This document shows positions 5,720 to 56,484 of a DNA stretch of 64,000 nucleotides, piece by piece. The translations under genes were made by a program, and so were the position numbers. How positions within the stretch are numbered: position 1 is the first letter of the stretch; the number at the start of each line of letters is the position of its first letter. The notes below the pieces were generated by a model. The model ran no database searches. It was given only the letters and a program-made list of their open reading frames with translations, and was not told where the DNA came from. Source of the DNA: an uncultured Gammaproteobacteria bacterium (GTDB lineage Bacteria > Patescibacteriota > Patescibacteriia > UBA9934 > CAZDDW01); assembly GCA_964504365.1 (NCBI GenBank), contig CAZDDW010000001.1, positions 68,293 to 132,292 on the forward strand, written 5' to 3'.

Positions 5720-5919
5720 GGCTATCTCCTTGGTGGTTGTAAGGTTCGTTTGTCGGTTCGATCGGTACTGATCTCCCTGACACAAGCATCATGCCATTAC
5801 TAGAAAAATAACGATATCAAATTTCGTAGTAAAATTGACGATATCGATGAATAGTGCTAATCTTAGAAAAGAAATATAAAAAAAGTACTACGAAAAGTAT
5901 CGTAGTTAAGCTAGATTTT

Positions 5920-6687
5920 ATGGCTACCAAATTACAGCAACAAGAAATTACAGAAGTTTTGACTCGTTTGGGTTTGAATCAAAAAGACCAGGAAGTTTAT
6001 CTGGCTCTGCTTAAATCAGGTCCAGTTACAGTTACTCCGCTAGCAAATGCAATTAATTGTCCAGTAACTACAGCACAATCCGTACTCAATCGTTTGGTTG
6101 ATCGCGGCGTGATTAAAGTTGGTAAACAGAAATCACGACATGTGTTTGAGGCCCATGATCCCGTGGTCTTCCGTCGTTTACTAGAGCGTCAGGTTCAGGA
6201 TGTAGCCAGTGTTATCCCTTTGTTACAAAAAATGCAAACCGGCTCTTCGGTCACGCCAAAGATACGTATCTTCTATCGAGAGCGCATGACAGATATTTTT
6301 CACCAAGCTCTGAAGTGCAAGAGCAAGCTGGTTTACGAGATTGTAGCTGCTCGTGACTTTCAAGATATTATTGGTGAGCGCTTTCACTTCACCCGTCGTC
6401 GAGTCAAAGATGATGTTCGATTAAAAAGCCTGCGTGTTCAAAAACGGGAGATAAAAAAGTATTCCAAGCAATCGCACTTACGTGAATTGCGTGAGGCAAA
6501 GTTTCTTCCACCAGAATTGAATTTTCGTTGCTCAATTATGTTCTGGGATGATACGATCGCTTTTTTCACTACCAAGGAAGAGGGTCTGGCCTGGACTGTG
6601 CAGAGCAAGACCTTGAGAAAAACCATGGAACAGATTTTCGATCTACTCTGGAGCGTCAGCCGGAAAATGGAAACAAAGCAGGAGTGA
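5920..6687 (+). CDS. TrmB-family-like HTH transcriptional regulator
   Basis: N-terminal winged-HTH pattern (EITEVLTRLGLNQKDQEVYLALLKSGPVTVTPLANAINCPVTTAQSVLNRLVDRGVI) resembles the TrmB N-domain. A palindrome lies just upstream. Confidence 0.5.
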   Translation: MATKLQQQEITEVLTRLGLNQKDQEVYLALLKSGPVTVTPLANAINCPVTTAQSVLNRLVDRGVIKVGKQKSRHVFEAHDPVVFRRLLERQVQDVASVIPLLQKMQTGSSVTPKIRIFYRERMTDIFHQALKCKSKLVYEIVAARDFQDIIGERFHFTRRRVKDDVRLKSLRVQKREIKKYSKQSHLRELREAKFLPPELNFRCSIMFWDDTIAFFTTKEEGLAWTVQSKTLRKTMEQIFDLLWSVSRKMETKQE

Positions 6688-10020: not shown

Positions 10021-10082
10021 TTGAAAAAGAAAAAACCACATCTTGCGATGCGGCGCCGCGTTGCGACTTGTCCAGTAGTGGA

Positions 10083-13052: not shown

Positions 13053-13118
13053 CGGGACCGACAAGCGTGAGCTTGTCAATTGACAGGCTGACGCCTGTCG
13101 ATCCCGCAAGAAAAAAAT

Positions 13119-27056: not shown

Positions 27057-27743
27057 CTACTTGAGGTAGCAATGAGTCACGGTCGGGTAGTCGATCCTGA
27101 ACTCTGACGGGTCGATGTTGATCGTTCCGATGAGCTCGTTGAATGAGGGGCCGAAGTACTCACCGTAGATCGTGTACTCTGCCGAGTCAACAATCGTCAA
27201 GGTGATCTCGTCACCGTTGATGGTGGTCTCGATCTGTTCGGTCGAGACGTAGTCACCAAGCTCGTTGCAGGCGCCGTCGACACCCTCGTACACGTCGTAC
27301 GTGCCGTTCGGGGCCAGACCCCACTCGCCGTCCGGGCCGGACCAGGCAACGGACTCGTACTGTCCGTGCTGGATGATGTTCACGTGCTGATCCAGGAACA
27401 GGGCGTTGTCCGCCTCGAAGGTGATCTCGTGCTCTCCTTGGTGCTCGGTCTGGCAGGTGCAATGGTCCGCGTCGTCACAGGAACCAACCGGCTCACCATT
27501 CTCGAAGGTGAACGCACCCGAGAACCCATCCGGAGCCTCGGCGTAGATGGTGGCCGAGAACGGCGTGGTGTCGTCATCGTCACCGGTGTCGTCGTCGTCC
27601 GTGACGTCGTCGTCATCGTCCGTGTTGGTCACATCGTCGTCATCGTCACCCGGGTTGTCCTCCGGGTCACAGCCGCCGCAGATGATCGTGGTCAGGAACA
27701 GGACCCCCATCAGGAGGGCCAGGATCGTGTGGATCCGAGTCAT
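27057..27743 (-). CDS. lipoprotein with N-terminal poly-Asp linker (high-GC paralog)
   Basis: Signal peptide with Cys (TTIICGGC). DDDDDVTNTDDDDDVTDDDDTGDDDDTT linker. The C-terminal domain is homologous to the 29605-30321 product. About 62% GC. Confidence 0.6.
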   Translation of the reverse strand: MTRIHTILALLMGVLFLTTIICGGCDPEDNPGDDDDDVTNTDDDDDVTDDDDTGDDDDTTPFSATIYAEAPDGFSGAFTFENGEPVGSCDDADHCTCQTEHQGEHEITFEADNALFLDQHVNIIQHGQYESVAWSGPDGEWGLAPNGTYDVYEGVDGACNELGDYVSTEQIETTINGDEITLTIVDSAEYTIYGEYFGPSFNELIGTINIDPSEFRIDYPTVTHCYLK

Positions 27744-27994
27744 GATGTCTTCCTCCGCCCTAGGGGCCGTTTGCCAAAGCGCTCACCATGAGCGAAATGG
27801 AAGGTACTACTTAAAGTTTACCCTAAGTTGACTGAAAATACTAGCATTGATGTTCAATCCTGTCAACCCCTAGCCGCCTTAAATATCCACAGTTTTTCCT
27901 AAGTTAAGCTTAATTTGACACGCGGGATAAATTTATGGTTGACTGGAATAAAGACCTCGCAAGTCCGCGTGGGCTTTTTATTTTGGAGAAAGTC

Positions 27995-28195
27995 ATGAAA
28001 AAGGTAATTTACTTCCTGGTTGTACTGAATTTGGCCCTGTTGGGTTATAGATTGTATCAAGCCCAAGACAGTCGGCAAACGACTGATACCGAAGAAGGTT
28101 TTGGTTACCACGTTGATATAGAGTTGGACGAATTCTCTTTGGCCGGTGCTGCCATGCACACAAGTCTTCTATATGGAGACAACGTATCCGAATAA
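27995..28195 (+). CDS. small hydrophobic/secreted peptide (66 aa) behind a conserved 39-bp leader
   Basis: MKKVIYFLVVLNLALLGYRLY... Preceded by a GGAG RBS inside the repeated leader at 27950-27988. Confidence 0.35.
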   Translation: MKKVIYFLVVLNLALLGYRLYQAQDSRQTTDTEEGFGYHVDIELDEFSLAGAAMHTSLLYGDNVSE

Positions 28196-28265
28196 TTAAT
28201 TTTATTCGGATTTTTATTAAGTACTAAAAATGTGCCACCTGATGGTGACACACAAAAGATCATCG

Positions 28266-28961
28266 TTATTTGATCAGCTCAGTCCATGTGGTAGTGCACG
28301 ATGAATAGATCGGGTTTTGGCTTAGTTTCGTAAACAACTTTCGGTTGAAGGCAGTATCATTTTCTGTGGAAGTACACAGATCACCCAACAAGTAGTCTAC
28401 ATCCAAGGCCAAAGCCAGTTCACATTCGTGGTAATAAGCTTCTCGTTCCGCTTTCCAGTATTCAGTGCAAATAGCTGGATCGACATCTTTCGGCCGGTTA
28501 CCGGCCAAGAAGATACCCCGTTGTTCTTCTGATTCAGCCCGCACCCATTGCTGGTAGTGAGTATATTCGTGAGAAAGCACTAGCCATAACTTGGGATCAG
28601 TAGGCGAGGCATTTGTTAAAGTGACTTGATCAAAGCTGACTACAGGTATTAGTTGATCACGAGTTACTGCAAATACTGCTACTGTCCCGCTGTGATTGCT
28701 GAAATCCAGACCGATTTCACCCATCATGATTTGTTGGTACAAATCTTGACTGATTTCCGGCTCGGGATGACTGGCAATAATTTGACGCAGGTGTTCTGAA
28801 AGGGAAGCGAAGCCCGATCTGCTTTCAGCTACCTGCGATGCGTCAGTGGTTTGTAGCCCGGACCCCCTCGTCATACCGATTAGGAAGATGATCAGAATAA
28901 GCGGCATGGCTAGCGTGAAGAATTTAAAGTTTCTTGCTTTTTGTTTTTGATGGTGTCTCAC
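28266..28961 (-). CDS. secreted protein with an HExxH zincin-like motif (putative metallopeptidase)
   Basis: N-terminal signal peptide. VLSHEYTHYQQW contains HEYTH, with a downstream Glu. The family is unknown. Confidence 0.4.
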   Translation of the reverse strand: MRHHQKQKARNFKFFTLAMPLILIIFLIGMTRGSGLQTTDASQVAESRSGFASLSEHLRQIIASHPEPEISQDLYQQIMMGEIGLDFSNHSGTVAVFAVTRDQLIPVVSFDQVTLTNASPTDPKLWLVLSHEYTHYQQWVRAESEEQRGIFLAGNRPKDVDPAICTEYWKAEREAYYHECELALALDVDYLLGDLCTSTENDTAFNRKLFTKLSQNPIYSSCTTTWTELIK

Positions 28962-29241
28962 CGCATTCTCCTTTTAGATGAGGCTTGCTAAAGACCTAAC
29001 AAGACAAAGTAGTACAAATAAAGGATTCTGTCAAGGTATTTTTAGCTAAGTTTAGTCAAAAAATGTTGTTGGTGGCTGACAGAAATTTTTTCTTCCTCTA
29101 TAAATTAAGCTCATTTTTCTTGTTAAAAAGTTTTGACAAGAAGTAATAAAAAGAATGGTTTCTTGACAGTGCTGTTTATTCATGTTTGAATCAAACAAAG
29201 ACCTCGCAAGTCCGCGTGGGCTTTTTATTTTGGAGTAAGAA

Positions 29242-29505
29242 ATGGCATACAAGATAAGAATGGTTGCAGAGTACTGCAACATTGTCGCAACCCTAGCTCT
29301 GGTGGTCATCATGACCATCTTGCTGGTCAGGGTGCTGCCGCTTTGTGATGTTACAAGCAGCAGCACGGCACTGATCGAACCTGAAGCAAATACAGAGGAA
29401 ATCGACAGCGTGGCATACTTGGCCAATCTGTGCGATTCCGATGGTGACGAGTGTCGGCCGATTCTGTATCATCCAAGCGGTCACGAACCCCTCAGTTTCG
29501 ATTAG
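29242..29505 (+). CDS. small Cys-containing peptide (87 aa) behind the second copy of the 39-bp leader
   Basis: ATG lies 7 nt after the GGAG of the repeat copy at 29197-29235. N-terminal hydrophobic segment. Overlapping minus-strand ORFs are judged spurious. Confidence 0.35.
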   Translation: MAYKIRMVAEYCNIVATLALVVIMTILLVRVLPLCDVTSSSTALIEPEANTEEIDSVAYLANLCDSDGDECRPILYHPSGHEPLSFD

Positions 29506-29604
29506 TGTAAAAAAATTCAGATCAGTCTTGGTCCATAGATACACCTATGGACTTTTTAATTTGTAAATAAAAAAATCCCAAGCTTGGTTCACTTGGGAAA
29601 GTTG

Positions 29605-30321
29605 TCACTCTTGGAGATATCCGCAATTGTCATCCAGATAGTCGCCAATTTCAGTCAGGTCTGTTGAGATCAGCCCCAGAACGTTATCCAGGTCGTCGTC
29701 GTTGTAGTAGCCTGATCCGATGATCGTATACGAAGGTTCTCCGTTCACAGTCATCTTGACCTGATTGTCGATGATCACGGTTCCGACTTCGAATGTGCCA
29801 ATGTAGTTTCCACCCATTCCACACGGCTCGCTGTAAAGGTCAAACAAACCTTCAGGTGCCAGTCCGCATAGGAAGTGGAAGTTCTGGTCCTCGGTGATCC
29901 AGTAATCGTAGTAGGTTGCAATTAGAGCAATCTCGCTATAGGCCTGGAACAGATAATGGCCTTCGATTACATCTGTGGTTATTGGAGAATGTCCAACCTG
30001 TATTTCACCAATGAAAACGATCGGATTATCAATGGACTGGTCTATCCCATCACAATCTGTGGTCAGGTGGACTGAGAATGTGTCGAACTCAGCATCGTTA
30101 TCATCATCGTCCGTGATGTCGTCGTCCGTGACGTCATCATCAGTGGCTGTGATGTCATCATCGTCGCCCTGGGTAACATCATCGTCGTCATCCTGTACAG
30201 CGTCATCATCACTGATCATATCGAGAATAATCGTGCCAGAGCTTGGTTCGCAGCCAGAGAATCCAAAGATGGTAAAGAGCGCTCCTAAGAATAAGTTAGT
30301 CAAAGCATGATGTCGAGCCAT
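29605..30321 (-). CDS. lipoprotein with poly-Asp linker (low-GC paralog of the 27057-27743 product)
   Basis: Lipobox-like FSGC. DDDDDVTQGDDDDITATDDDVTDDDITDDDD linker. Shares CGLAPEGLFDLY and MTVNGEPSYTIIG blocks with the paralog. Confidence 0.6.
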   Translation of the reverse strand: MARHHALTNLFLGALFTIFGFSGCEPSSGTIILDMISDDDAVQDDDDDVTQGDDDDITATDDDVTDDDITDDDDNDAEFDTFSVHLTTDCDGIDQSIDNPIVFIGEIQVGHSPITTDVIEGHYLFQAYSEIALIATYYDYWITEDQNFHFLCGLAPEGLFDLYSEPCGMGGNYIGTFEVGTVIIDNQVKMTVNGEPSYTIIGSGYYNDDDLDNVLGLISTDLTEIGDYLDDNCGYLQE

Positions 30322-30925
30322 GTCATTCTCCTCAAAGTTGTAACTATTTGACCTATGCCAGACTTCAGACTGAGAAAAAACCTTATCATTTTAGTCATGT
30401 CAAGTCAATCCGGATGTTAAAAAACCCTGACATAGAAAATAAACTTGAAATAGGAATTATGATTTTGTTAGTGTCTGGCGTACATGACAAAAATTTGGCT
30501 AAGTTATGCACAATTTCGATTTGACAGTGCTTTTTTGCCATGATGAACTGAGAGTAGGAATTCCAAACACATTCATATTTGAACCTTTCAATCTAGGGTT
30601 AGGCAAAAGACTTGCGAGGTCTTTGCCACGGGCGATTCTTAAAACGAGATCTTGTTTACCCGGGCATTCTGTTCTTGGTAGGAAACTTTTATGACCCTCA
30701 GGTCATGCTAAGACAGGGTAATCGACAAACAGGAAAACGTTTACACACTTGGATTGTTTAATAGTATGCGGGTTGGGGGGAGCCAACTGTAGCTATTAGA
30801 TGATCAACAAGTGGGGCTCCCACGCCCCCGAGACCAGCTGTTCAATTACGGCTCCCATGGTCCCGGAGGCGACCGATCTATTCCAGATCGGCCCGTCTCT
30901 TGTTTTTCCAAACAAGGGATTTGTA

Positions 30926-32920
30926 ATGCGTCTGTTTTACCTGTGTGTTTCTTCTGTCTTGGTGGTGCTGCTTGGTGCACTGGCCTGTAATAACATCGTG
31001 CCCATGGGTGGGTCAGATGATCCGCCGACCAGCGATGGTGGGTTGGGCGGTGATGTCCAGCCACTGCCCGAAGGTGTTTTCCAACTACCTTTTGCGTCTG
31101 GTGAAATCCATCTTTGTACTCAAGGGGTTGGTGGCAGTTACTCTCATGATGCGGCTTCAACCTGGTGTGGTTTGGATCTGGATTCTTCAAACAGTGCTTA
31201 CGAGGAGTTGTACGCTCCAGCAAGCGGCATTGCTTACGTGCACTACGACAACTCGGATACTGGGTTTGGTTACCACATCAACATCGACCTTGGTGATGGG
31301 ACTTACTTTGTTCTTGGGCACATGGCTGAGATTTTTCTTGAGGACGCCAGTGAGGTGGTTGTTGGGATGTTGCTTGGTTACGAGGGGTGCACTGGTAGTT
31401 GCACCGGTGATCATGTGCATTTCGACTTGCATGAGGGCGATGCTACCATGATGGCCCAACACGGCACTTCAATACCAACTAGTTACTACGTGACCGATGC
31501 AACCAGTGGCAGTGAGTACATGCATCTGCCCAGTGATCAGTTTGTCTGCGATCTGTACTCTGGCCATTACTACGAGTCACACCTGACCGTAAATACCTGG
31601 CATCCAGATGGCACGCTTCTAATCTACCCGTCCAGCGGGGAAGTCTTCGTGGTTGACCGTGGTCAGTTGCACTGGATCGAGAACGAGGAAGTGTTTTGGA
31701 GCTATGGCTTTGACTTTGCTGATGCGGTGGCTATTTCTGAGCGTGAGTTGTGGTGTTGGGAAGAGTCTGGTCAGAGTATTTCTGAGCCAACTGAATATCG
31801 CTCTGTTGAAGACGAAGATGGAGTGACTTGGTTGGTTTATGAACTTGCTGACAACCCTGGTCGTTATCGACAGGTTGTTCCTGACGAGGTGTATCCGGAG
31901 ATCTTGAATAGCTGGGGTGTGAGTATCACCACGACTTACGCGCACGAAGATGGAGCGGCCATGCTATCTGACTATCCAGTGGCCACTGGTTGGGCCCGTT
32001 TGCGTGACGGTACCCTGGTTCAGGAGATCGGATCAAGCACGATCTATGTCGTGCACGAGGGCTATGCCTTGCCGATCAAGGATTGGGAAACCTATCTGAT
32101 GCTCGGCTTTGGTGATCGCTTTGTGTTCGAGGTACCAAGTGGCACACTTGGTTATGCTGTTTCTGAGATCGGAAGCTGTGATGCCAATGTTGGCTGTATC
32201 GGAATAGAGACGGTCACTGGTTGTGGTGGGGATCTGTCGATTGACTTTGTTGACGACGATCCGGTGTTCGAAGATGATGACGACGTGGTAGATGATGATG
32301 ATTCTGAATCGTCTGCTGACGATGACGATGACTCAGATACGACCGGGGACGACGATGACACAGTCGATCTCGGGGACGACGATGACATCGTTGATGATGA
32401 CGATGACACAACCGAGCTCAGCGATGACGACGACAGCTTTGGTGATGACGACATCGCCGACGATGATACAACAGAGATCACGGATGATGATGACGACACC
32501 GAGCCCTTGGGGGATGACGATGACACGACTGAGGAAGAGGTGGTCGAACCAGATCCGGATTGGCTGTTGTTAGAGATCGAGGCCACGCTCTCTGGAGCGC
32601 CGGCTGATTACGTCGAACTTTCAGGCGAGCTGCTCGATCAGCACGACACTCCTGCTGGGGGTGGCTTCTGGTGGGCAGCGCTCGAGACCGTGTATGACGA
32701 AAACACAGTTTACTGGTCTGCCTATGTCCAGAATGAGTGGAGCTTTCGCTACTCTGTCGAATACGAACGCTACGGCGTGACTTCATGGAGCTGTTTGGCC
32801 CCGTTCCCTCCAGGTACAATCACCATGACGGTTGATGCCCGGCTTGAAGGTCAGACCATCACGACCGAAGCTATTGATAACCACCTGGGTGGTTGTGAAC
32901 TATATGTTCCAGTGCCATGA
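30926..32920 (+). CDS. M23 (LytM-type) peptidase-domain protein with a long poly-Asp linker and C-terminal domain
   Basis: HxxxD (GYHINID) and HxH (GDHVHFDLH) M23 motifs. Signal peptide with Cys. About 100 aa of D-rich repeats (DDDDTVDLGDDDDIVDDDDDTTE...). Start set to MRLFYL at 30926. Confidence 0.65.
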   Translation: MRLFYLCVSSVLVVLLGALACNNIVPMGGSDDPPTSDGGLGGDVQPLPEGVFQLPFASGEIHLCTQGVGGSYSHDAASTWCGLDLDSSNSAYEELYAPASGIAYVHYDNSDTGFGYHINIDLGDGTYFVLGHMAEIFLEDASEVVVGMLLGYEGCTGSCTGDHVHFDLHEGDATMMAQHGTSIPTSYYVTDATSGSEYMHLPSDQFVCDLYSGHYYESHLTVNTWHPDGTLLIYPSSGEVFVVDRGQLHWIENEEVFWSYGFDFADAVAISERELWCWEESGQSISEPTEYRSVEDEDGVTWLVYELADNPGRYRQVVPDEVYPEILNSWGVSITTTYAHEDGAAMLSDYPVATGWARLRDGTLVQEIGSSTIYVVHEGYALPIKDWETYLMLGFGDRFVFEVPSGTLGYAVSEIGSCDANVGCIGIETVTGCGGDLSIDFVDDDPVFEDDDDVVDDDDSESSADDDDDSDTTGDDDDTVDLGDDDDIVDDDDDTTELSDDDDSFGDDDIADDDTTEITDDDDDTEPLGDDDDTTEEEVVEPDPDWLLLEIEATLSGAPADYVELSGELLDQHDTPAGGGFWWAALETVYDENTVYWSAYVQNEWSFRYSVEYERYGVTSWSCLAPFPPGTITMTVDARLEGQTITTEAIDNHLGGCELYVPVP

Positions 32921-32977: not shown

Positions 32978-32990
32978 CTCTCTAACCTAC

Positions 32991-33011
32991 AACCAAAAGA
33001 TAACCGATCGG
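32991..33011 (+). repeat. left 21-bp inverted repeat flanking the 33041-33571 gene
   Basis: AACCAAAAGATAACCGATCGG. Its reverse complement matches 33588-33608 at 20 of 21 positions. Confidence 0.8.
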
Positions 33012-33040
33012 ATATATTTTGGTTGTAGTAGTGTAAAGAA

Positions 33041-33571
33041 ATGCAAAATAAATCGTATACAAAAAAAGAATTAGATCGACTTGTAAAAGAAATGCAATTG
33101 CTTGAGCGGCCGCTGTCTCAATGGGACTCCAATGCTTTAAAAGGTCATATTAGTCATCGAGCAAAGGTTGCGGCCCAAAAAAGGCTGAATCGACGGATTG
33201 AACAATATGATCGGTTGCGTGCACAGAAAAATCTGGTTGAACAAGGTTTGTTGAACCTTGAAAGGATAGGTAATCGAGTATATGCATCTCTGACCTTTAA
33301 TGGTCATATTGAGGCCTTAAAGGGGAGAATAATGAGTTCAGATAATAAATTGCCAGATGGTAGAGAATGTCTGGTTAGCTTTGATGTTCCGGAACATGTC
33401 AGGAATGTGCGCTGGCATATTCGTAGATTACTAAAGAATGCTGGATTTGAAATGGTTCATAAAAGCCTTTGGAAAAGCAAAAGTGATGTAGTTAAAGATT
33501 TTGTTGAGCTTATCGGATATCTTGGTATACAAGACTGGATTAAGGTTTACGTGGCAGAGCAAAAAACTTGA
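33041..33571 (+). CDS. hypothetical protein with a C-terminal Cas2/VapD-like fold signature and an N-terminal coiled-coil extension
   Basis: C-terminal ~80 aa (LVSFDVPEHVRNVRWHIRRLLKNAGFEMVHKSLWKS...IQDWIKVYVAE) follows the Cas2 pattern (hhhYDV...RR.R..hh...G.RhQ.SVF...h.hY). No CRISPR array is nearby. Confidence 0.4.
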   Translation: MQNKSYTKKELDRLVKEMQLLERPLSQWDSNALKGHISHRAKVAAQKRLNRRIEQYDRLRAQKNLVEQGLLNLERIGNRVYASLTFNGHIEALKGRIMSSDNKLPDGRECLVSFDVPEHVRNVRWHIRRLLKNAGFEMVHKSLWKSKSDVVKDFVELIGYLGIQDWIKVYVAEQKT

Positions 33572-33587
33572 TGTTACCAAAAAATTG

Positions 33588-33608
33588 CCGGTCGGTTATC
33601 TTTTGGTT
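33588..33608 (+). repeat. right 21-bp inverted repeat
   Basis: CCGGTCGGTTATCTTTTGGTT. Confidence 0.8.
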
Positions 33609-33711
33609 GCACATGTTTTGTGTGAGGTGTTGTAAGGATATAAATTAAGCTTAAAATGATCCACATTTAAGCAAGCAAAGCTGGTAAAATTATGCTATAC
33701 TAAGAACACGT

Positions 33712-53795: not shown

Positions 53796-55207
53796 CTAGA
53801 GGAATATGTTTTAATTGTGTTTGTGGTACAACCCCCTTCATACAGTTGAAAGTGCCAAATTTCTTTTGTATAGCGGTACCATCCTGCAGCATACATGATT
53901 TCAGCTAAGGTGCCAATTTTACTTGAATCAACCGTAGATTGGGATTTGTAGTTGACGTTCCAAGCCTCCTTGCCATCAGACGTCTTATATTTTAGATCAA
54001 CTGCACCACCAGTTCCATGCGGTGAGCTACCTGGCCAAGCCACGGCGCTAGGAATATTAGGAGTACGTCCTTCAGATTTAGCTTCCTTGATTTCATCACA
54101 AGCCAACTCAAGCTGTGTATGTAATGGACGCAGAGCACTTACAATAAACAACGTAAGATTACGCGACTGTGCTTGATCTCCAGCCCGCTTTAAAGCCTCG
54201 ACTGCTCCGGGTCCGATTCTCAAATAAGAATATTTACCTTCGATTGCTGGGTGAGAAGGGAGAGGAACCGCGTCTTCTGGAGCGAGGACACCTAATGTGG
54301 TTGGATCGACTTCATCGTATAGGGCGTCACGATCAGAACCATCGCCGGTTTTTTTACACCAGGCCTCACAATCGGCATGTGTTCCACAAAGCTTACCAAG
54401 AGCTGGGTCAAAAGATGCATCGTATCTATCCTCTGGAACATATGATCGTGTTACATACTTGAGTTGCAGCGGTTCAAACAAAGTCAGATTAGGATTAACA
54501 GTAAACAGAATTATATAACTTCCGATAAGTAATATCATCCCAGTGATTGCACCTCGGATTCGTGTTAGCCCTTTGTCTGGCTGTCCGATCATGTACTGGA
54601 CGCCACCAACCATGACCATTACTGTGGCAACAATTATCGCTGTGCTAAGCATCCATTTATAAAGAGCAATAACATATTCAGCCAAAAAGTTAACTTCCAA
54701 AATATCACCACGTTGTGCTATTGGCGAAAAACTAAGATTAGGAATATCAACGCTTAGATTGGGGATGATTGGATCGCTAGGCTCTTCAGCACCGAATGCG
54801 GCGTGCGTATCTTCGCAAGCATATAAAGAGGTTGCATACTCTGAGTCAGTTGGTTCAAAATATTCATACCGTTCTGAGCATTCGAGTTCGCATTCTGTCT
54901 CATCGTAGATGCCCAAGACTTGACAGTCCTCACCTTCATAACAAAAACAATTTCCACCAGCTGCTCGTCCGGCTTCTGTTAGACAGTCATTTACATAGTC
55001 GGTGTAATTTGGATCACTGGCTTCAACGACTGAACCGTTACCGTTGGTGTAGTCGGCAAGACAAGTATCTTGGCAATCAACCTCATCAACAATACCCAAC
55101 TCGACACACCCGTTATCATCGTTGTAACAAACACAGGTATCCCCAGCTGCCAATAGGGCGGTTGGCCAGAGTAAGATTGTTAGTGCAAGAATAAGAAAGT
55201 ACCGCAT
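53789..55207 (-). CDS. secreted Cys-rich / 2-TM pilin-like / M15 (VanY-type) peptidase fusion protein
   Basis: Signal peptide and two CxCY...GC...C modules. Two adjacent TM helices (STAIIVATVMVMVGGVQYM; GMILLIGSYIILFTV). C-terminal SxHxxGxAxD (SPHGTGGAVD) and ExxH (EIWH) M15 motifs. Confidence 0.6.
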   Translation of the reverse strand: MRYFLILALTILLWPTALLAAGDTCVCYNDDNGCVELGIVDEVDCQDTCLADYTNGNGSVVEASDPNYTDYVNDCLTEAGRAAGGNCFCYEGEDCQVLGIYDETECELECSERYEYFEPTDSEYATSLYACEDTHAAFGAEEPSDPIIPNLSVDIPNLSFSPIAQRGDILEVNFLAEYVIALYKWMLSTAIIVATVMVMVGGVQYMIGQPDKGLTRIRGAITGMILLIGSYIILFTVNPNLTLFEPLQLKYVTRSYVPEDRYDASFDPALGKLCGTHADCEAWCKKTGDGSDRDALYDEVDPTTLGVLAPEDAVPLPSHPAIEGKYSYLRIGPGAVEALKRAGDQAQSRNLTLFIVSALRPLHTQLELACDEIKEAKSEGRTPNIPSAVAWPGSSPHGTGGAVDLKYKTSDGKEAWNVNYKSQSTVDSSKIGTLAEIMYAAGWYRYTKEIWHFQLYEGGCTTNTIKTYSSSC

Positions 55208-55209
55208 AA

Positions 55210-56484
55210 TTATATATAACAAGCGCCACGATAATGGAAATGCATGTAGTCGTAGACCCCTTTCCAACGACCACCCCAATCAAAGTTATTTATTTGGAAA
55301 GCCTCTATAACCTCAGGAGGTAAATCATGCTGCCCGTTACTGATTCTTTCAAGTTCACTTTCACCGTGTAGGCCATTCTGACAAATAGTTACACAGTTTT
55401 CATGGCTACCACCACCGATACAGTACTGACAGCTCCCGCCTTCACGGCAGCTTCGTGGGCAGTTGATGTTTGTGTCTGGATTAACATCAATGGCTACCCC
55501 AAAAGCATGTGGACTGAGCTTGCCAGGTGAGTTTTTATTACAGCGCCAGTTATATGTTCCGCCAGCAGTTGAGCGAGTCGTATCGTAAGTAGTTGTTGTT
55601 GAAATTTGAGTAAAAGCTTTTTCAAAGGACTCAAGGGCCAGTTTATGGACTTTATAGCTTTGGCCGTTATGAGTTATGGTAACCAGATTGCGTTCGACCT
55701 CAGACTTGCTATTGCCATACGTGCTAAGCATGCAATCCTGCCATTTACTAACCCCCCATAAATCAGCCGCACATTCTCCTCCTTCTCCATAAGCCATACC
55801 AGCAATGTCTTCTGGAATTCCACCAATGTATTTAATCCGCAGTGGTTCAAATAAAGTTAGTTGAGGATTTACGGTATATAAAATAACATAGCTACCAAAG
55901 AGCAAAATTAAACCAGTTACCGCACTTCTAATTCTGGCCTTTCCTTTTTCAGGATCTTCGACCATGTATTGCACACCCCCGACCATGATCATTACAGTGG
56001 CAACAATTATTGCTGTGCTAAGCAACCATTTGTACAGTGCAACAACGTATTCACCTAACCAGTTTACTGTTAGGTAATCACCATCTTCTAAGAGTGGTGT
56101 GAAAGTTAGGTTTGGAATTTCAACCGCCAGATAAGGAACAACCGGTTTCCGTTTTTCAATCACAGGAGGACCAACTAATGCAGCTGCATGAGGACCAACT
56201 AATGCAGCTGCATCAAGACAATCATCTAAGGCATCTGTGTAATCTGCATCTGTTGTTTCAGAAAAGACAGCTCGAACAACACCCAGATCTTCTTCCATGT
56301 AGTCCTCATAAATTTGGTCACAATCAATTCGACATTGTTCAAGTGTGGTTGGATCATAAATGCCTGGACGATCACAACCGTCAATCGTGTTATAACAAAA
56401 ACATCGGTCGCCCTCTTCTGCTGCCAAAAGAGTTAGCGGCCATGAAAACAGTATTAATAGCGATATGGCTGCTATTTTTTTCAT
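55210..56484 (-). CDS. paralog of the upstream fusion protein (Cys-rich / 2-TM / M15 peptidase)
   Basis: The same architecture: CFCYNTIDGC, STAIIVATVMIMVGGVQYMV, SPHAFGVAID and DYMHFH. Confidence 0.6.
   Translation of the reverse strand: MKKIAAISLLILFSWPLTLLAAEEGDRCFCYNTIDGCDRPGIYDPTTLEQCRIDCDQIYEDYMEEDLGVVRAVFSETTDADYTDALDDCLDAAALVGPHAAALVGPPVIEKRKPVVPYLAVEIPNLTFTPLLEDGDYLTVNWLGEYVVALYKWLLSTAIIVATVMIMVGGVQYMVEDPEKGKARIRSAVTGLILLFGSYVILYTVNPQLTLFEPLRIKYIGGIPEDIAGMAYGEGGECAADLWGVSKWQDCMLSTYGNSKSEVERNLVTITHNGQSYKVHKLALESFEKAFTQISTTTTYDTTRSTAGGTYNWRCNKNSPGKLSPHAFGVAIDVNPDTNINCPRSCREGGSCQYCIGGGSHENCVTICQNGLHGESELERISNGQHDLPPEVIEAFQINNFDWGGRWKGVYDYMHFHYRGACYI

What the first reader, a model, noticed from the sequence alone, without database searches (positions are those of the whole stretch)
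27950..27988. 39-bp perfect direct repeat forming the 5' leader/RBS of two small-peptide genes, with a partial inverted third copy
AAAGACCTCGCAAGTCCGCGTGGGCTTTTTATTTTGGAG occurs identically at 27950-27988 and 29197-29235. Each copy ends 6-7 nt before the ATG of a small ORF (66 and 87 aa, each with an N-terminal hydrophobic segment and acidic tail). A 16-nt core (GACTTGCGAGGTCTTT) recurs inverted inside a hairpin at 30602-30627 in the leader of the M23 peptidase gene. The 29242 locus and the M23 peptidase leader also share a promoter-like element (TTGACAGTGCT). This indicates a co-regulated module of secreted peptides and peptidases, bacteriocin-like or cell-envelope-remodelling, with a conserved RNA leader.
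Basis: seen in the sequence. Interest (0 to 1): 0.6.

Follow-up and report, generated by a model that had tools for sequence, protein, structure and literature searches.

The report
Duplicated hairpin leader before small genes
The 39-base repeat is the whole 5' untranslated leader (a terminator-like RNA hairpin, a run of U, and a ribosome-binding site) of a small membrane-protein gene conserved in Uhrbacteria; this strain carries it twice, around a 1.25-kb insert of orphan genes, which makes it a modest new example of a familiar kind of gene-control element.

Summary
The 39-mer is exact at 27950-27988 and 29197-29235, with 0 matches expected by chance. The similarity extends to 67 nt at 87% identity. 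The 16-nt core recurs inverted at 30609-30624.

The organism is a Candidatus Uhrbacteria-like (CPR) bacterium. Each copy follows a TTGACA-N17/18-TGnTTGAxT promoter by 5 nt and ends in a GGAG Shine-Dalgarno sequence 6 nt before the ATG. The 39-mer is therefore the predicted 5' UTR from +1 to the SD.

ORF2 (87 aa) belongs to a conserved family with 11 homologs. Their leaders keep the same layout while the stem sequence changes by compensation. A covariance model built only from relatives recovers both window copies and nothing else, so the element is gene-specific and not dispersed. It matches no Rfam family.

ORF1 (66 aa) and the adjacent 231-aa gene are orphans. A relative at about 86% identity lacks exactly the 1247 bp bounded by the two copies.

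The in-frame "coding" reading used by gene callers (86 and 107 aa) is rejected. The bacteriocin reading has no support.

The function is inferred, not shown. It is most likely a promoter-proximal terminator (attenuator); a 5' stabilising stem-loop is the close rival.

The inverted copy lies in a variable hairpin of the M23 leader. Its antisense match is lineage-specific and unexplained.

The parts
27915..27944 (+). Predicted promoter of ORF1: -35 TTGACA (27915-27920), 18-nt spacer, extended -10-like TGgTTGACT (27936-27944). The predicted transcription start is about 27950-27952.
   Evidence: TTGACA is enriched in intergenic DNA, 16 of 28 occurrences in 11% of the window. The same layout is conserved upstream of all orthologous leaders. 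The start site is not measured.
27931..27997 (+). Extended repeat, copy 1 (67 nt, 87% identical to 29178-29244).
   Evidence: family D5. There are 9 differences, all outside the 39-mer.
27950..27988 (+). Leader copy 1, the predicted full 5' UTR: hairpin 27950-27977, U-tract 27975-27984, SD GGAG 27985-27988.
   Evidence: Covariance model R1, built from relatives only, hits 27946-27997 with E 4e-5.
27995..28195 (+). ORF1, 66 aa, with an N-terminal hydrophobic segment. It is an orphan. The 86-aa gene call from ATG 27935 is an over-extension through the leader.
   Evidence: only itself in 1.84e9 representatives. ATG 27935 lies in the promoter spacer.
28186..28211 (+). Terminator-like hairpin ending the ORF1 transcription unit.
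   Evidence: 10-bp stem followed by TTTTATT.
28266..28961 (-). 231-aa orphan protein with an HEYTH (HExxH) motif. It lies in the strain-specific 1247-bp segment.
   Evidence: only itself in 5.8e9 proteins. Absent from relative L025.
29163..29191 (+). Predicted promoter of ORF2: -35 TTGACA (29163-29168), 17-nt spacer, TGtTTGAAT (29183-29191). The first 11 nt, TTGACAGTGCT, are shared with the M23 promoter.
29197..29235 (+). Leader copy 2: hairpin 29197-29224, U-tract 29222-29231, SD 29232-29235.
   Evidence: R1 hits 29192-29244 with E 1.2e-5.
29242..29505 (+). ORF2, 87 aa. It belongs to a conserved small membrane-protein family with the C-terminal motif LCDxxGxECRPxLYHPxG...FD.
29530..29553 (+). 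Terminator-like hairpin ending the ORF2 unit.
30521..30549 (+). Predicted M23 promoter: TTGACA, 17-nt spacer, TGaTGAACT. The predicted start is about 30556.
   Evidence: The promoter and its upstream 49 nt are conserved in relatives.
30602..30627 (+). Hairpin in the variable 5' part of the M23 leader. It contains the inverted 16-nt core (30609-30624), which is antisense to bases 1-16 of the ORF1/ORF2 leaders.
   Evidence: An orthologous hairpin with a compensatory outer stem occurs in L033.
30926..32920 (+). M23 family peptidase with a D-rich C-terminal region, preceded by a leader of about 370 nt.

Best explanation
Shown or strongly supported. The 39-mer is the complete 5' untranslated leader of two stand-alone small-gene transcription units. 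A sigma-70-type promoter (TTGACA, 17-18 nt, TGnTTGAxT) lies 5 nt upstream, so transcription should start at the first A's of the 39-mer. Bases 1-28 form an RNA hairpin on the sense strand. A U5AU4 tract follows it directly, then GGAG, then the ATG 6 nt later. This leader belongs ancestrally to the ORF2 gene family of Uhrbacteria-like CPR bacteria. In this strain it is present twice because a 1247-bp segment (orphan ORF1, an orphan HExxH protein and a second promoter-leader) lies between two copies. ORF1 uses the resident leader and ORF2 uses the second one. The 39 nt have been kept or homogenised to identity while the flanks differ.

Inferred mechanism. The hairpin plus U-tract is built like this genome's genuine intrinsic terminators. 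I propose it acts as a promoter-proximal terminator (attenuator): most transcripts would stop after about 30-37 nt, and read-through would set the level of the small membrane proteins. No alternative antiterminator fold is possible, because the stem begins at about +1. Any regulation would have to come from a trans factor or from the intrinsic efficiency of the terminator.
For: The repeat is exact and non-random.

Promoter. TTGACA is enriched in intergenic DNA. The arrangement TTGACA-N17/18-TTnnnT, then 5 nt, then the stem base is conserved in all eight orthologous leaders.

Hairpin. It is conserved by covariation. Model R1, built from L024, L027 and L030 only, finds both window copies (E 1e-5 and 4e-5) and L025 (3e-8). 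On the significant matches 95% of cells are paired and 5 of 11 pairs show double changes. The covariation score is 0.58 against 0.30+-0.06 in shuffles (0/500) and at most 0.19 in slid controls. G.U pairs occur, and the sense strand folds better than the antisense strand in 5 of 6 leaders. Relatives' hairpins have z -2.8 to -3.7. The three substitutions in close relative L025 are U.G to C-G, a bulge base, and A.C to A-U.

Terminator likeness. The U-tract abuts the stem in every ortholog, including L033, where a second hairpin separates it from the SD. Consensus scans flag it. Its T5-(A/C)-T4 tail resembles the tails at real gene ends at 10035, 10980 and 26988. These two are the only terminator-like hairpins within 80 nt upstream of a same-strand start codon in 64 kb, apart from the M23 gene's own 3' terminator, which lies 70 nt before the next gene.

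Duplication. L025 matches ig1 plus leader and leader plus ORF2 contiguously, and lacks the 1247 bp. All 9 differences in the 67-nt repeat lie outside the 39-mer (P about 2e-4 if uniform).
Against: No transcript data exist. The start site, termination and read-through are all predictions. The -10-like hexamers lack the canonical A at position 2.

The window's own hairpin is weak (-8.3 kcal/mol, z about -1).

There is no antiterminator or sensor, so 'attenuator' may only mean constitutive damping.

The constant 5-nt distance from the -10 to the stem base is better explained by a need for a 5'-terminal stem-loop, which is the stabiliser rival.

The covariation rests on 5-6 distinct sequences, aligned to the model's own structure.
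Confidence: 0.45

Rival explanations
1. The anatomy is the same, but the hairpin works as a 5'-terminal stabilising stem-loop. It would protect the mRNA from 5'-end-dependent decay (RNase J, Y or E; RppH). The U-rich tract would serve as a single-stranded ribosome landing or enhancer region before a strong SD. On this reading it is an expression-boosting leader, not an attenuator.
For: The stem base lies a constant 5 nt after the -10-like hexamer in all orthologs, so the hairpin begins at about +1. That is the defining geometry of 5' stabilisers (Emory 1992; Hambraeus 2002; Sharp & Bechhofer 2005, as summarised in PMC7509114). The promoter has a perfect -35 and the SD is GGAG at optimal spacing. 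UUUUNUUUUGGAG is nearly invariant, which suggests a sequence role beyond a terminator tail.
Against: Stabilisers do not need a U-tract abutting the stem. In L033 the U-tract stays with the hairpin and not with the SD. The window's hairpin is weak. No half-life data exist.
Confidence: 0.35
2. The leader, or a short terminated leader RNA made from both identical copies, pairs in trans through its first 16 nt with the hairpin at 30602-30627 in the M23 5' UTR. This would couple expression of the small-protein genes to M23 peptidase expression. Selection for that pairing would keep the three copies identical.
For: There is perfect 16-nt sense/antisense complementarity (0/1000 shuffles). It covers exactly +1 to +16 of the leader and the whole inner hairpin of the M23 leader. 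L033 has a 10-nt inverted match in the orthologous hairpin (19/1000). All three copies are identical within this genome, whereas L025 differs at core position 8.
Against: Complementarity is not significant in L024, L027 or L021. In L033 only about 5 nt are orientation-informative, because the hairpin arms are self-complementary. Both partner regions are locked in their own hairpins. No expression data exist.
Confidence: 0.1
3. The core is a DNA operator for a dimeric transcription factor. It would overlap the transcription start of ORF1 and ORF2, and occur as the palindrome AAAGAC-N7-GTCTTT downstream of the M23 promoter.
For: The core occurs in either orientation in three promoter-proximal regions. 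Copy 3 is an extended palindrome. HTH-type proteins exist in the window: a TrmB-like protein at 5854-6687 and a PaaX_M-like protein at 33041-33571.
Against: Orthologs keep pairing and not sequence: compensatory changes, G.U pairs and sense-strand asymmetry. That is an RNA signature, not an operator signature. The second half-site in copies 1 and 2 is GTCCGC. No core is found in relatives at up to 3 mismatches.
Confidence: 0.05
4. The repeat has no function of its own. It is a recombination product or scar (gene conversion, or an insertion bounded by homology), or a hairpin related to the IS200/RAYT-type Y1 transposases that neighbour ORF2 in relatives.
For: The two copies bound a strain-specific 1247-bp segment. 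Y1_Tnp genes flank ORF2 and M23 in L024, L027, L033 and L022. The ig2 promoter looks chimeric with the M23 promoter.
Against: The hairpin, U-tract and SD are conserved at a fixed place relative to the promoter and ATG in single-copy relatives. No Y1_Tnp gene was found among the window ORFs scanned. There are no further copies in 64 kb. The block of identity coincides with the predicted +1-to-SD boundaries.
Confidence: 0.04
5. The 39-mer is coding: an N-terminal extension of ORF1 (the 86-aa call) and an 18-codon upstream ORF before ORF2, encoding ...KDLASPRGLFILE.
For: An in-frame ATG exists at 27935 and 29182. Gene callers made 86-aa and 107-aa calls.
Against: That ATG is the cATGg of the extended -10, inside the promoter spacer. 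In orthologs the frame gives 3, 8, 8 or 18 codons, or a fusion, with no conserved peptide. Two of the three substitutions in L025 are non-synonymous, including L to P. There is no SD before it in copy 2.
Confidence: 0.01

Closest known systems
Intrinsic (Rho-independent) terminators used as 5'-leader attenuators (e.g. the trp, pyr, T-box and riboswitch expression platforms)
   Same: A GC-rich stem-loop is followed at once by a U-tract. It lies on the sense strand between the promoter and the SD, and is conserved by covariation.
   Different: The leader is only about 45 nt and the stem starts at about +1. There is no room for an antiterminator, leader peptide, tRNA-binding or ligand-binding domain. 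Termination is not demonstrated.
5'-terminal stem-loop mRNA stabilisers (E. coli ompA 5' UTR, B. subtilis aprE leader; PMC7509114)
   Same: The hairpin lies at the extreme predicted 5' end, followed by a strong SD in a short leader.
   Different: Those elements do not carry a conserved U-tract abutting the stem. No decay data exist here. No sequence relationship is implied.
IS200 left-end stem-loop / REP-RAYT hairpins (from my own knowledge: IS200 carries a terminator-like hairpin upstream of its gene, and RAYTs are Y1 transposases associated with REP hairpins)
   Same: A terminator-like hairpin lies just upstream of a small gene. Y1_Tnp genes are adjacent in several relatives.
   Different: No Y1_Tnp gene was found among the window ORFs scanned. 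The element is not dispersed and sits at a fixed distance from a promoter. The downstream gene is a membrane protein, not a transposase.
cis/trans antisense RNA pairs and 5'-UTR-derived small RNAs (e.g. Listeria SreA acting on prfA, mentioned in PMC7509114)
   Same: There is a 16-nt perfect complementarity between the leader's 5' end and a hairpin in a neighbouring gene's 5' UTR.
   Different: The complementarity is not conserved in most relatives. There is no expression evidence.

Membership tests
Intrinsic terminator / leader attenuator | A stable GC-rich stem-loop followed within 0-2 nt by a U-rich tract on the transcribed strand | tested here: met
   The feature is present in all orthologs. 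The window's version is the weakest (-8.3 kcal/mol).
Intrinsic terminator / leader attenuator | Located downstream of the transcription start and upstream of the regulated ORF | tested here: inconclusive
   The promoter is predicted and conserved, but no start site has been measured.
Intrinsic terminator / leader attenuator | A mutually exclusive antiterminator structure or sensor domain | tested here: not met
   The stem begins about 5 nt after the -10 hexamer. There is no upstream transcribed sequence and no alternative fold.
Intrinsic terminator / leader attenuator | Transcripts actually end at the U-tract | not testable with these tools
   This needs Term-seq or in vitro transcription.
5'-terminal stem-loop stabiliser | A stem-loop within a few nt of the mRNA 5' end | tested here: inconclusive
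   There is a constant 5-nt gap between the -10 and the stem base in 8 leaders. The 5' end is predicted only.
5'-terminal stem-loop stabiliser | Increases mRNA half-life | not testable with these tools
   No RNA data are available.
Any described RNA family (Rfam 15) | A match to a covariance model | tested here: not met
   At gathering thresholds only 3 tRNAs match in the window. At E<=5 over 27700-31000 there are only two sub-threshold chance hits.
Dispersed repeats (REP/BIME/MITE) | Many copies scattered through intergenic DNA | tested here: not met
   There are only 2 copies plus 1 partial copy, all within 2.7 kb of the 64-kb window. The rest of the source genome could not be searched, because it is not in the scanned collections.
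Dispersed repeats (REP/BIME/MITE) | An associated Y1 (RAYT/IS200) transposase | tested here: not met
   None was found among the window ORFs scanned. Y1_Tnp genes are present next to ORF2 and M23 in relatives.
Leader-peptide / uORF control | A conserved short ORF in the leader | tested here: not met
   The frame and length are not conserved: 3, 8, 8 or 18 codons, or a fusion.
Bacteriocin / RiPP precursor locus | Precursor homology, or adjacent modification, export or immunity genes | tested here: not met
   No Pfam, NCBIfam or PADLOC hits for ORF1, ORF2 or their neighbours. The neighbours are lipoproteins, an HExxH orphan and M23.
Antisense RNA-mRNA pair | Extended complementarity between two transcripts | tested here: met
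   A 16/16 match in the window.
Antisense RNA-mRNA pair | Complementarity maintained across relatives | tested here: inconclusive
   L033 is marginal (19/1000). L024, L027 and L021 are not significant. The M23 leader of the informative close strain (L025) is not available.

The most novel reading that the evidence does not exclude
The promoter plus 39-mer is a self-contained tiny RNA gene present in two identical copies. Most transcripts would terminate at the U-tract, giving an RNA of about 30-35 nt. Its first 16 nt would pair with, and open, the hairpin at 30602-30627 in the long structured 5' UTR of the M23 peptidase mRNA. Read-through would additionally express the small membrane proteins. 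This would make it a dual-output leader that links envelope small proteins to peptidoglycan-hydrolase expression in an ultra-small CPR bacterium. Selection for this pairing would explain why all three copies are identical within this genome although the close relative differs.
Probability: 0.1. Interest if true: 0.6.

Novelty: new member of a known kind. Interest (0 to 1): 0.3.

Why it matters
Almost nothing is known about gene regulation in uncultivated CPR/Patescibacteria. This locus gives three things. First, it gives a concrete promoter-plus-leader architecture conserved by covariation: a perfect -35, an extended but non-canonical -10, and a terminator-like stem-loop at +1. Second, it identifies a new conserved family of small membrane proteins syntenic with an M23 peptidoglycan hydrolase and a type-IV-secretion-like cluster, in a strain-variable cell-surface region. 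Third, it shows how a promoter-leader cassette is reused when orphan genes are inserted. It also corrects gene calls in public collections, where the 86-aa and 107-aa products read through the leader. In kind it remains an ordinary cis-acting leader. The only unusual element is the lineage-specific antisense match to the M23 leader.

Tried and rejected
1. Anchoring synteny on the 231-aa HExxH protein failed. It has no homolog among 5.8e9 proteins.

2. Exact-pattern scans of genome contigs and metagenome contigs with AAAGACCTCGCAAGTCN{0,10}TTTT returned only unrelated chance hits. Five of them were a coding gene encoding ...FKDLASPEF....

3. Nine contigs carrying ORF2 were all the same strain (>=99.8% identical), colinear and without inversion. 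They gave no comparative or phase-variation signal.

4. Rfam gave nothing, at gathering thresholds or at E<=5.

5. The MAFFT alignment of leaders was not structure-consistent. I replaced it with a covariance-model alignment.

6. RNAduplex of whole leaders was noisy. It showed no consistent trans-pairing in relatives.

7. I considered an invertible-switch or site-specific recombination reading of the inverted copies. No recombinase is found among the scanned ORFs of the window and no alternative arrangement appears in the contigs.

8. I considered the RAYT/IS200 idea. No Y1_Tnp gene is found among the window ORFs scanned, and the element is not dispersed.

9. The window's 176-aa PaaX_M-like protein is unrelated to the Y1_Tnp-like gene at the same position in L024.

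10. Two literature searches failed on syntax. A search on Patescibacteria promoters and start sites found nothing relevant.

11. I skipped structure prediction of ORF2 as unlikely to bear on the leader.

Full report
OBSERVATION. The 39-mer is present exactly twice, at 27950-27988 and 29197-29235 on the + strand. No other copy exists at up to 3 mismatches, and none is expected by chance. Its first 16 nt recur as a reverse complement at 30609-30624. Against shuffled leaders this match is never reached (0/1000). The similarity between the two direct copies is wider than reported: 67 nt at 87% identity, 27931-27997 vs 29178-29244. Both copies stop 6 nt before an ATG (27995 and 29242), opening ORFs of 66 and 87 aa. 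TTGACAGTGCT is exact at 29163 and 30521, with 0.09 expected.

CONTEXT. The window is ordinary chromosome of a small-genome bacterium. It carries NusA, YidC, GroES/EL, RF, KsgA, Sua5, RecG, RadA, ClpB and three tRNAs, plus a VirB4/TraG-PrgI type-IV-secretion-like cluster and a 3198-aa secreted protein. The M23 peptidase has more than 150 homologs, and those that carry a name are Candidatus Uhrbacteria or Patescibacteria.

The local order is:
- D-rich lipoprotein A1 (27057-27743, -)
- leader 1, ORF1 and a terminator (28186-28211)
- a 231-aa HExxH protein (28266-28961, -)
- leader 2, ORF2 and a terminator (29530-29553)
- D-rich lipoprotein A2 (29605-30321, -), a paralog of A1
- a leader of about 370 nt, then M23 (30926-32920)
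Relatives keep the frame 'giant protein, variable block of ~230-aa (-) genes and small (+) ORFs, M23, T4SS-like genes'.

PROMOTER AND 5' END (predicted). TTGACA is strongly enriched in intergenic DNA: 16 of 28 occurrences fall in 11% of the window. Both copies have TTGACA, a 17-18-nt spacer ending in ATGn, then TTGACT or TTGAAT, then 5 nt, then the 39-mer. The start site should therefore fall on the first A's of the 39-mer. The identical block then runs exactly from +1 to the SD. The -10-like hexamers lack the canonical A at position 2, and no start site has been measured.

RELATIVES.
- The 231-aa protein has no homolog.
- ORF1 has no homolog (1.84e9 representatives).
- ORF2 belongs to a family with 11 further members. 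They share a variable N-terminal hydrophobic helix and a conserved C-terminal motif, LCDxxGxECRPxLYHPxG...FD. They have no Pfam, NCBIfam or PADLOC match.

I recovered DNA upstream of eight distinct family members. Six share the layout of TTGACA, N17/18, TTnnnT, 5 nt, GC-rich hairpin, U4-6(C/A)U4, GGAG, 6 nt, ATG. The stem sequences differ among them: the window has CGC/GCG, L024 and L027 have CCTG/CAGG, and L030 has CCTT/AAGG. L033 keeps the hairpin and U-tract but inserts a second hairpin before the SD. L021 has a shorter leader.

RNA STRUCTURE. A covariance model built only from L024, L027 and L030 finds both window copies (E 1.2e-5 and 4e-5) and L025/L026 (3e-8). It finds nothing else significant in 140 kb, including the rest of the window and copy 3.

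On the six significant matches:
- 95% of cells pair.
- 5 of 11 pairs show changes on both sides.
- The covariation score is 0.58, against 0.30+-0.06 in shuffles (0/500) and at most 0.19 when partners are slid.
The caveats are that there are few sequences and the alignment is fitted to the model.

G.U pairs occur, and the sense strand folds better than the antisense strand in 5 of 6 leaders. Relatives' hairpins are significantly stable (z -2.8 to -3.7), but the window's is not (z -1.2).

The close relative L025/L026 (ORF2 93% identical, DNA about 86% identical) differs from the 39-mer at three positions. These turn U.G into C-G, change a bulged base, and turn A.C into A-U. This is the signature of a sense-strand RNA hairpin. 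It is not the signature of a protein-coding sequence or a protein-binding palindrome.

CODING READING REJECTED. Gene callers extended ORF1 to 86 aa, and the L025 ORF2 ortholog to 107 aa, through the leader. In copy 2 the same frame is an 18-codon upstream ORF. However, the ATG concerned is the cATGg of the extended -10, inside the promoter spacer. In orthologs the frame yields 3, 8, 8 or 18 codons, or a fusion. Two of the three L025 substitutions would be non-synonymous, including Leu to Pro.

NOT A DISPERSED REPEAT. There are no other copies in the window. Scans of two large collections returned only chance hits, but the source genome itself is not in them, so the rest of that genome remains unsearched. 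No recombinase or Y1 transposase was found among the window ORFs scanned. Y1_Tnp genes do sit beside ORF2 and M23 in several relatives.

ORIGIN OF THE DUPLICATION. L025 aligns to window 27807-27997 (ig1 plus leader) and, overlapping by exactly the 67-nt repeat, to 29178-29503 (leader plus ORF2). The relative therefore has A1, ig1, leader and ORF2 in sequence. The window has an extra 1247 bp that holds only orphan genes and a second promoter-leader.

Copy 1, with both its flanks, is the ortholog of L025's leader. Copy 2 has different flanks, and its promoter begins like the M23 promoter. All 9 differences in the 67-nt repeat lie outside the 39-mer (P about 2e-4 if uniform). The 39 nt have therefore been kept identical, either by selection on the 5' UTR or by a short gene-conversion patch. 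I cannot tell whether the window gained the segment or L025 lost it.

MECHANISM (inferred). The hairpin plus abutting U-tract is indistinguishable in design from this genome's terminators at real gene ends. In 64 kb, the two leader copies are the only such sites lying just before a same-strand start codon; the M23 3' terminator, 70 nt upstream of the next gene, is the one other site inside the 80-nt limit. In L033 the U-tract stays with the hairpin and not with the SD.

I therefore favour a promoter-proximal terminator that damps or gates expression (0.45). No antiterminator can exist, because the stem begins at about +1.

The constant 5-nt gap between the -10 and the stem base fits a 5'-terminal stabilising stem-loop equally well (0.35; for background on such elements see PMC7509114). 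The two are not mutually exclusive, and only RNA-end mapping can separate them.

COPY 3. The inverted core lies in a stable hairpin (-11.8 kcal/mol, z -3.55) at about +47 to +72 of the M23 leader. It is in that leader's variable 5' part. L033 has an orthologous hairpin with a compensatory outer stem and a 10-nt inverted match to its own ORF2-family leader (19/1000). Only about 5 of those 10 nt are orientation-informative. L024, L027 and L021 show nothing significant.

The 16-nt antisense relationship is therefore real in this genome but lineage-specific. Candidate explanations are trans RNA pairing, concerted evolution or local recombination, and none is established.

COMPARISON AND VERDICT. 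In kind this is a short cis-acting 5' leader, either attenuator-like or stabiliser-like. It matches no Rfam family. It is a new member of a known kind, of modest interest.

Noticed in passing
window 30557-30925 (also L021 9663-10003, L022 9625-10003, L024 2551-2882, L027 9162-9493): The ~370-nt 5' leader of the M23 peptidase gene is conserved and apparently structured across Uhrbacteria whose M23 proteins are only 54-62% identical. RNAalifold predicts 71 pairs, 25 of them with compensatory double changes. The core stems are GGGGGAG(U/C)C:(G)ACUCCC and CGCCCC......GGAGGCG, and the 5' end pairs with the SD region. No Rfam match is found even at E<=5. It is a candidate new cis-regulatory RNA of peptidoglycan hydrolase genes in CPR, and probably more interesting than the assigned finding.
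   Followed up: partly
window 30480-30527: About 49 nt immediately upstream of the M23 -35 (AAATTTGGCTAAGTTATGCACAATTT..TTGACA) are about 88% conserved in L022, L023, L024, L033, L035 and L036. This is far more than the coding sequence. It is a likely regulator-binding site or UP-type element.
   Followed up: partly
window 32990-33023 and 33576-33609, flanking 33041-33571: The 176-aa PaaX_M/Cas2-like protein gene just after M23 is bracketed by a 34-nt inverted repeat that is 88% complementary. In relatives this position holds Y1_Tnp (IS200-like) genes, which are unrelated in sequence. It may be a small mobile or swapped cassette.
   Followed up: partly
window promoters, e.g. 7431, 10935(-), 27900-27915, 29105-29115, 63547(-); L021 8300-8370; L022 8215-8230: A recurrent TAAGCTYA / TTAGCTAA-like motif occurs next to, or within the spacer of, many TTGACA promoters in this genome and its relatives. 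It may be a lineage-specific promoter element or a common regulator site.
   Followed up: no
window 27935-28195; P0124 (L025 2038-2361): Public gene calls over-extend these small genes through the leader: 86 aa instead of 66, and 107 aa instead of 87. This creates a spurious shared N-terminus, MVDWNKD(L/P)ASPRG(L/F)FILEKV.
   Followed up: yes
window 27057-27743, 29605-30321, 32290-32600: Two paralogous lipoprotein-like proteins and the M23 C-terminus carry long Asp-rich (DDDD-V/T) tracts. These make local GC peaks of 0.52-0.56 and account for most of the other repeats in the region.
   Followed up: partly
L022 5268-6776: In one relative, the same variable block between the giant protein and M23 holds a radical-SAM/SPASM enzyme followed by a 56-aa ORF, a RiPP-like pair. 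Nothing equivalent exists in the window.
   Followed up: no
window 13053-13106: A 54-nt near-perfect palindrome (88%) sits between the release-factor and epimerase genes and contains back-to-back TTGACA hexamers on both strands. It may be a bidirectional terminator/promoter or an operator.
   Followed up: no
window 54466-54751 and 55839-56124: A 286-nt direct repeat at 71% identity, 1373 nt apart, lies in and next to the VanY-like carboxypeptidase gene. It suggests tandem paralogs.
   Followed up: no
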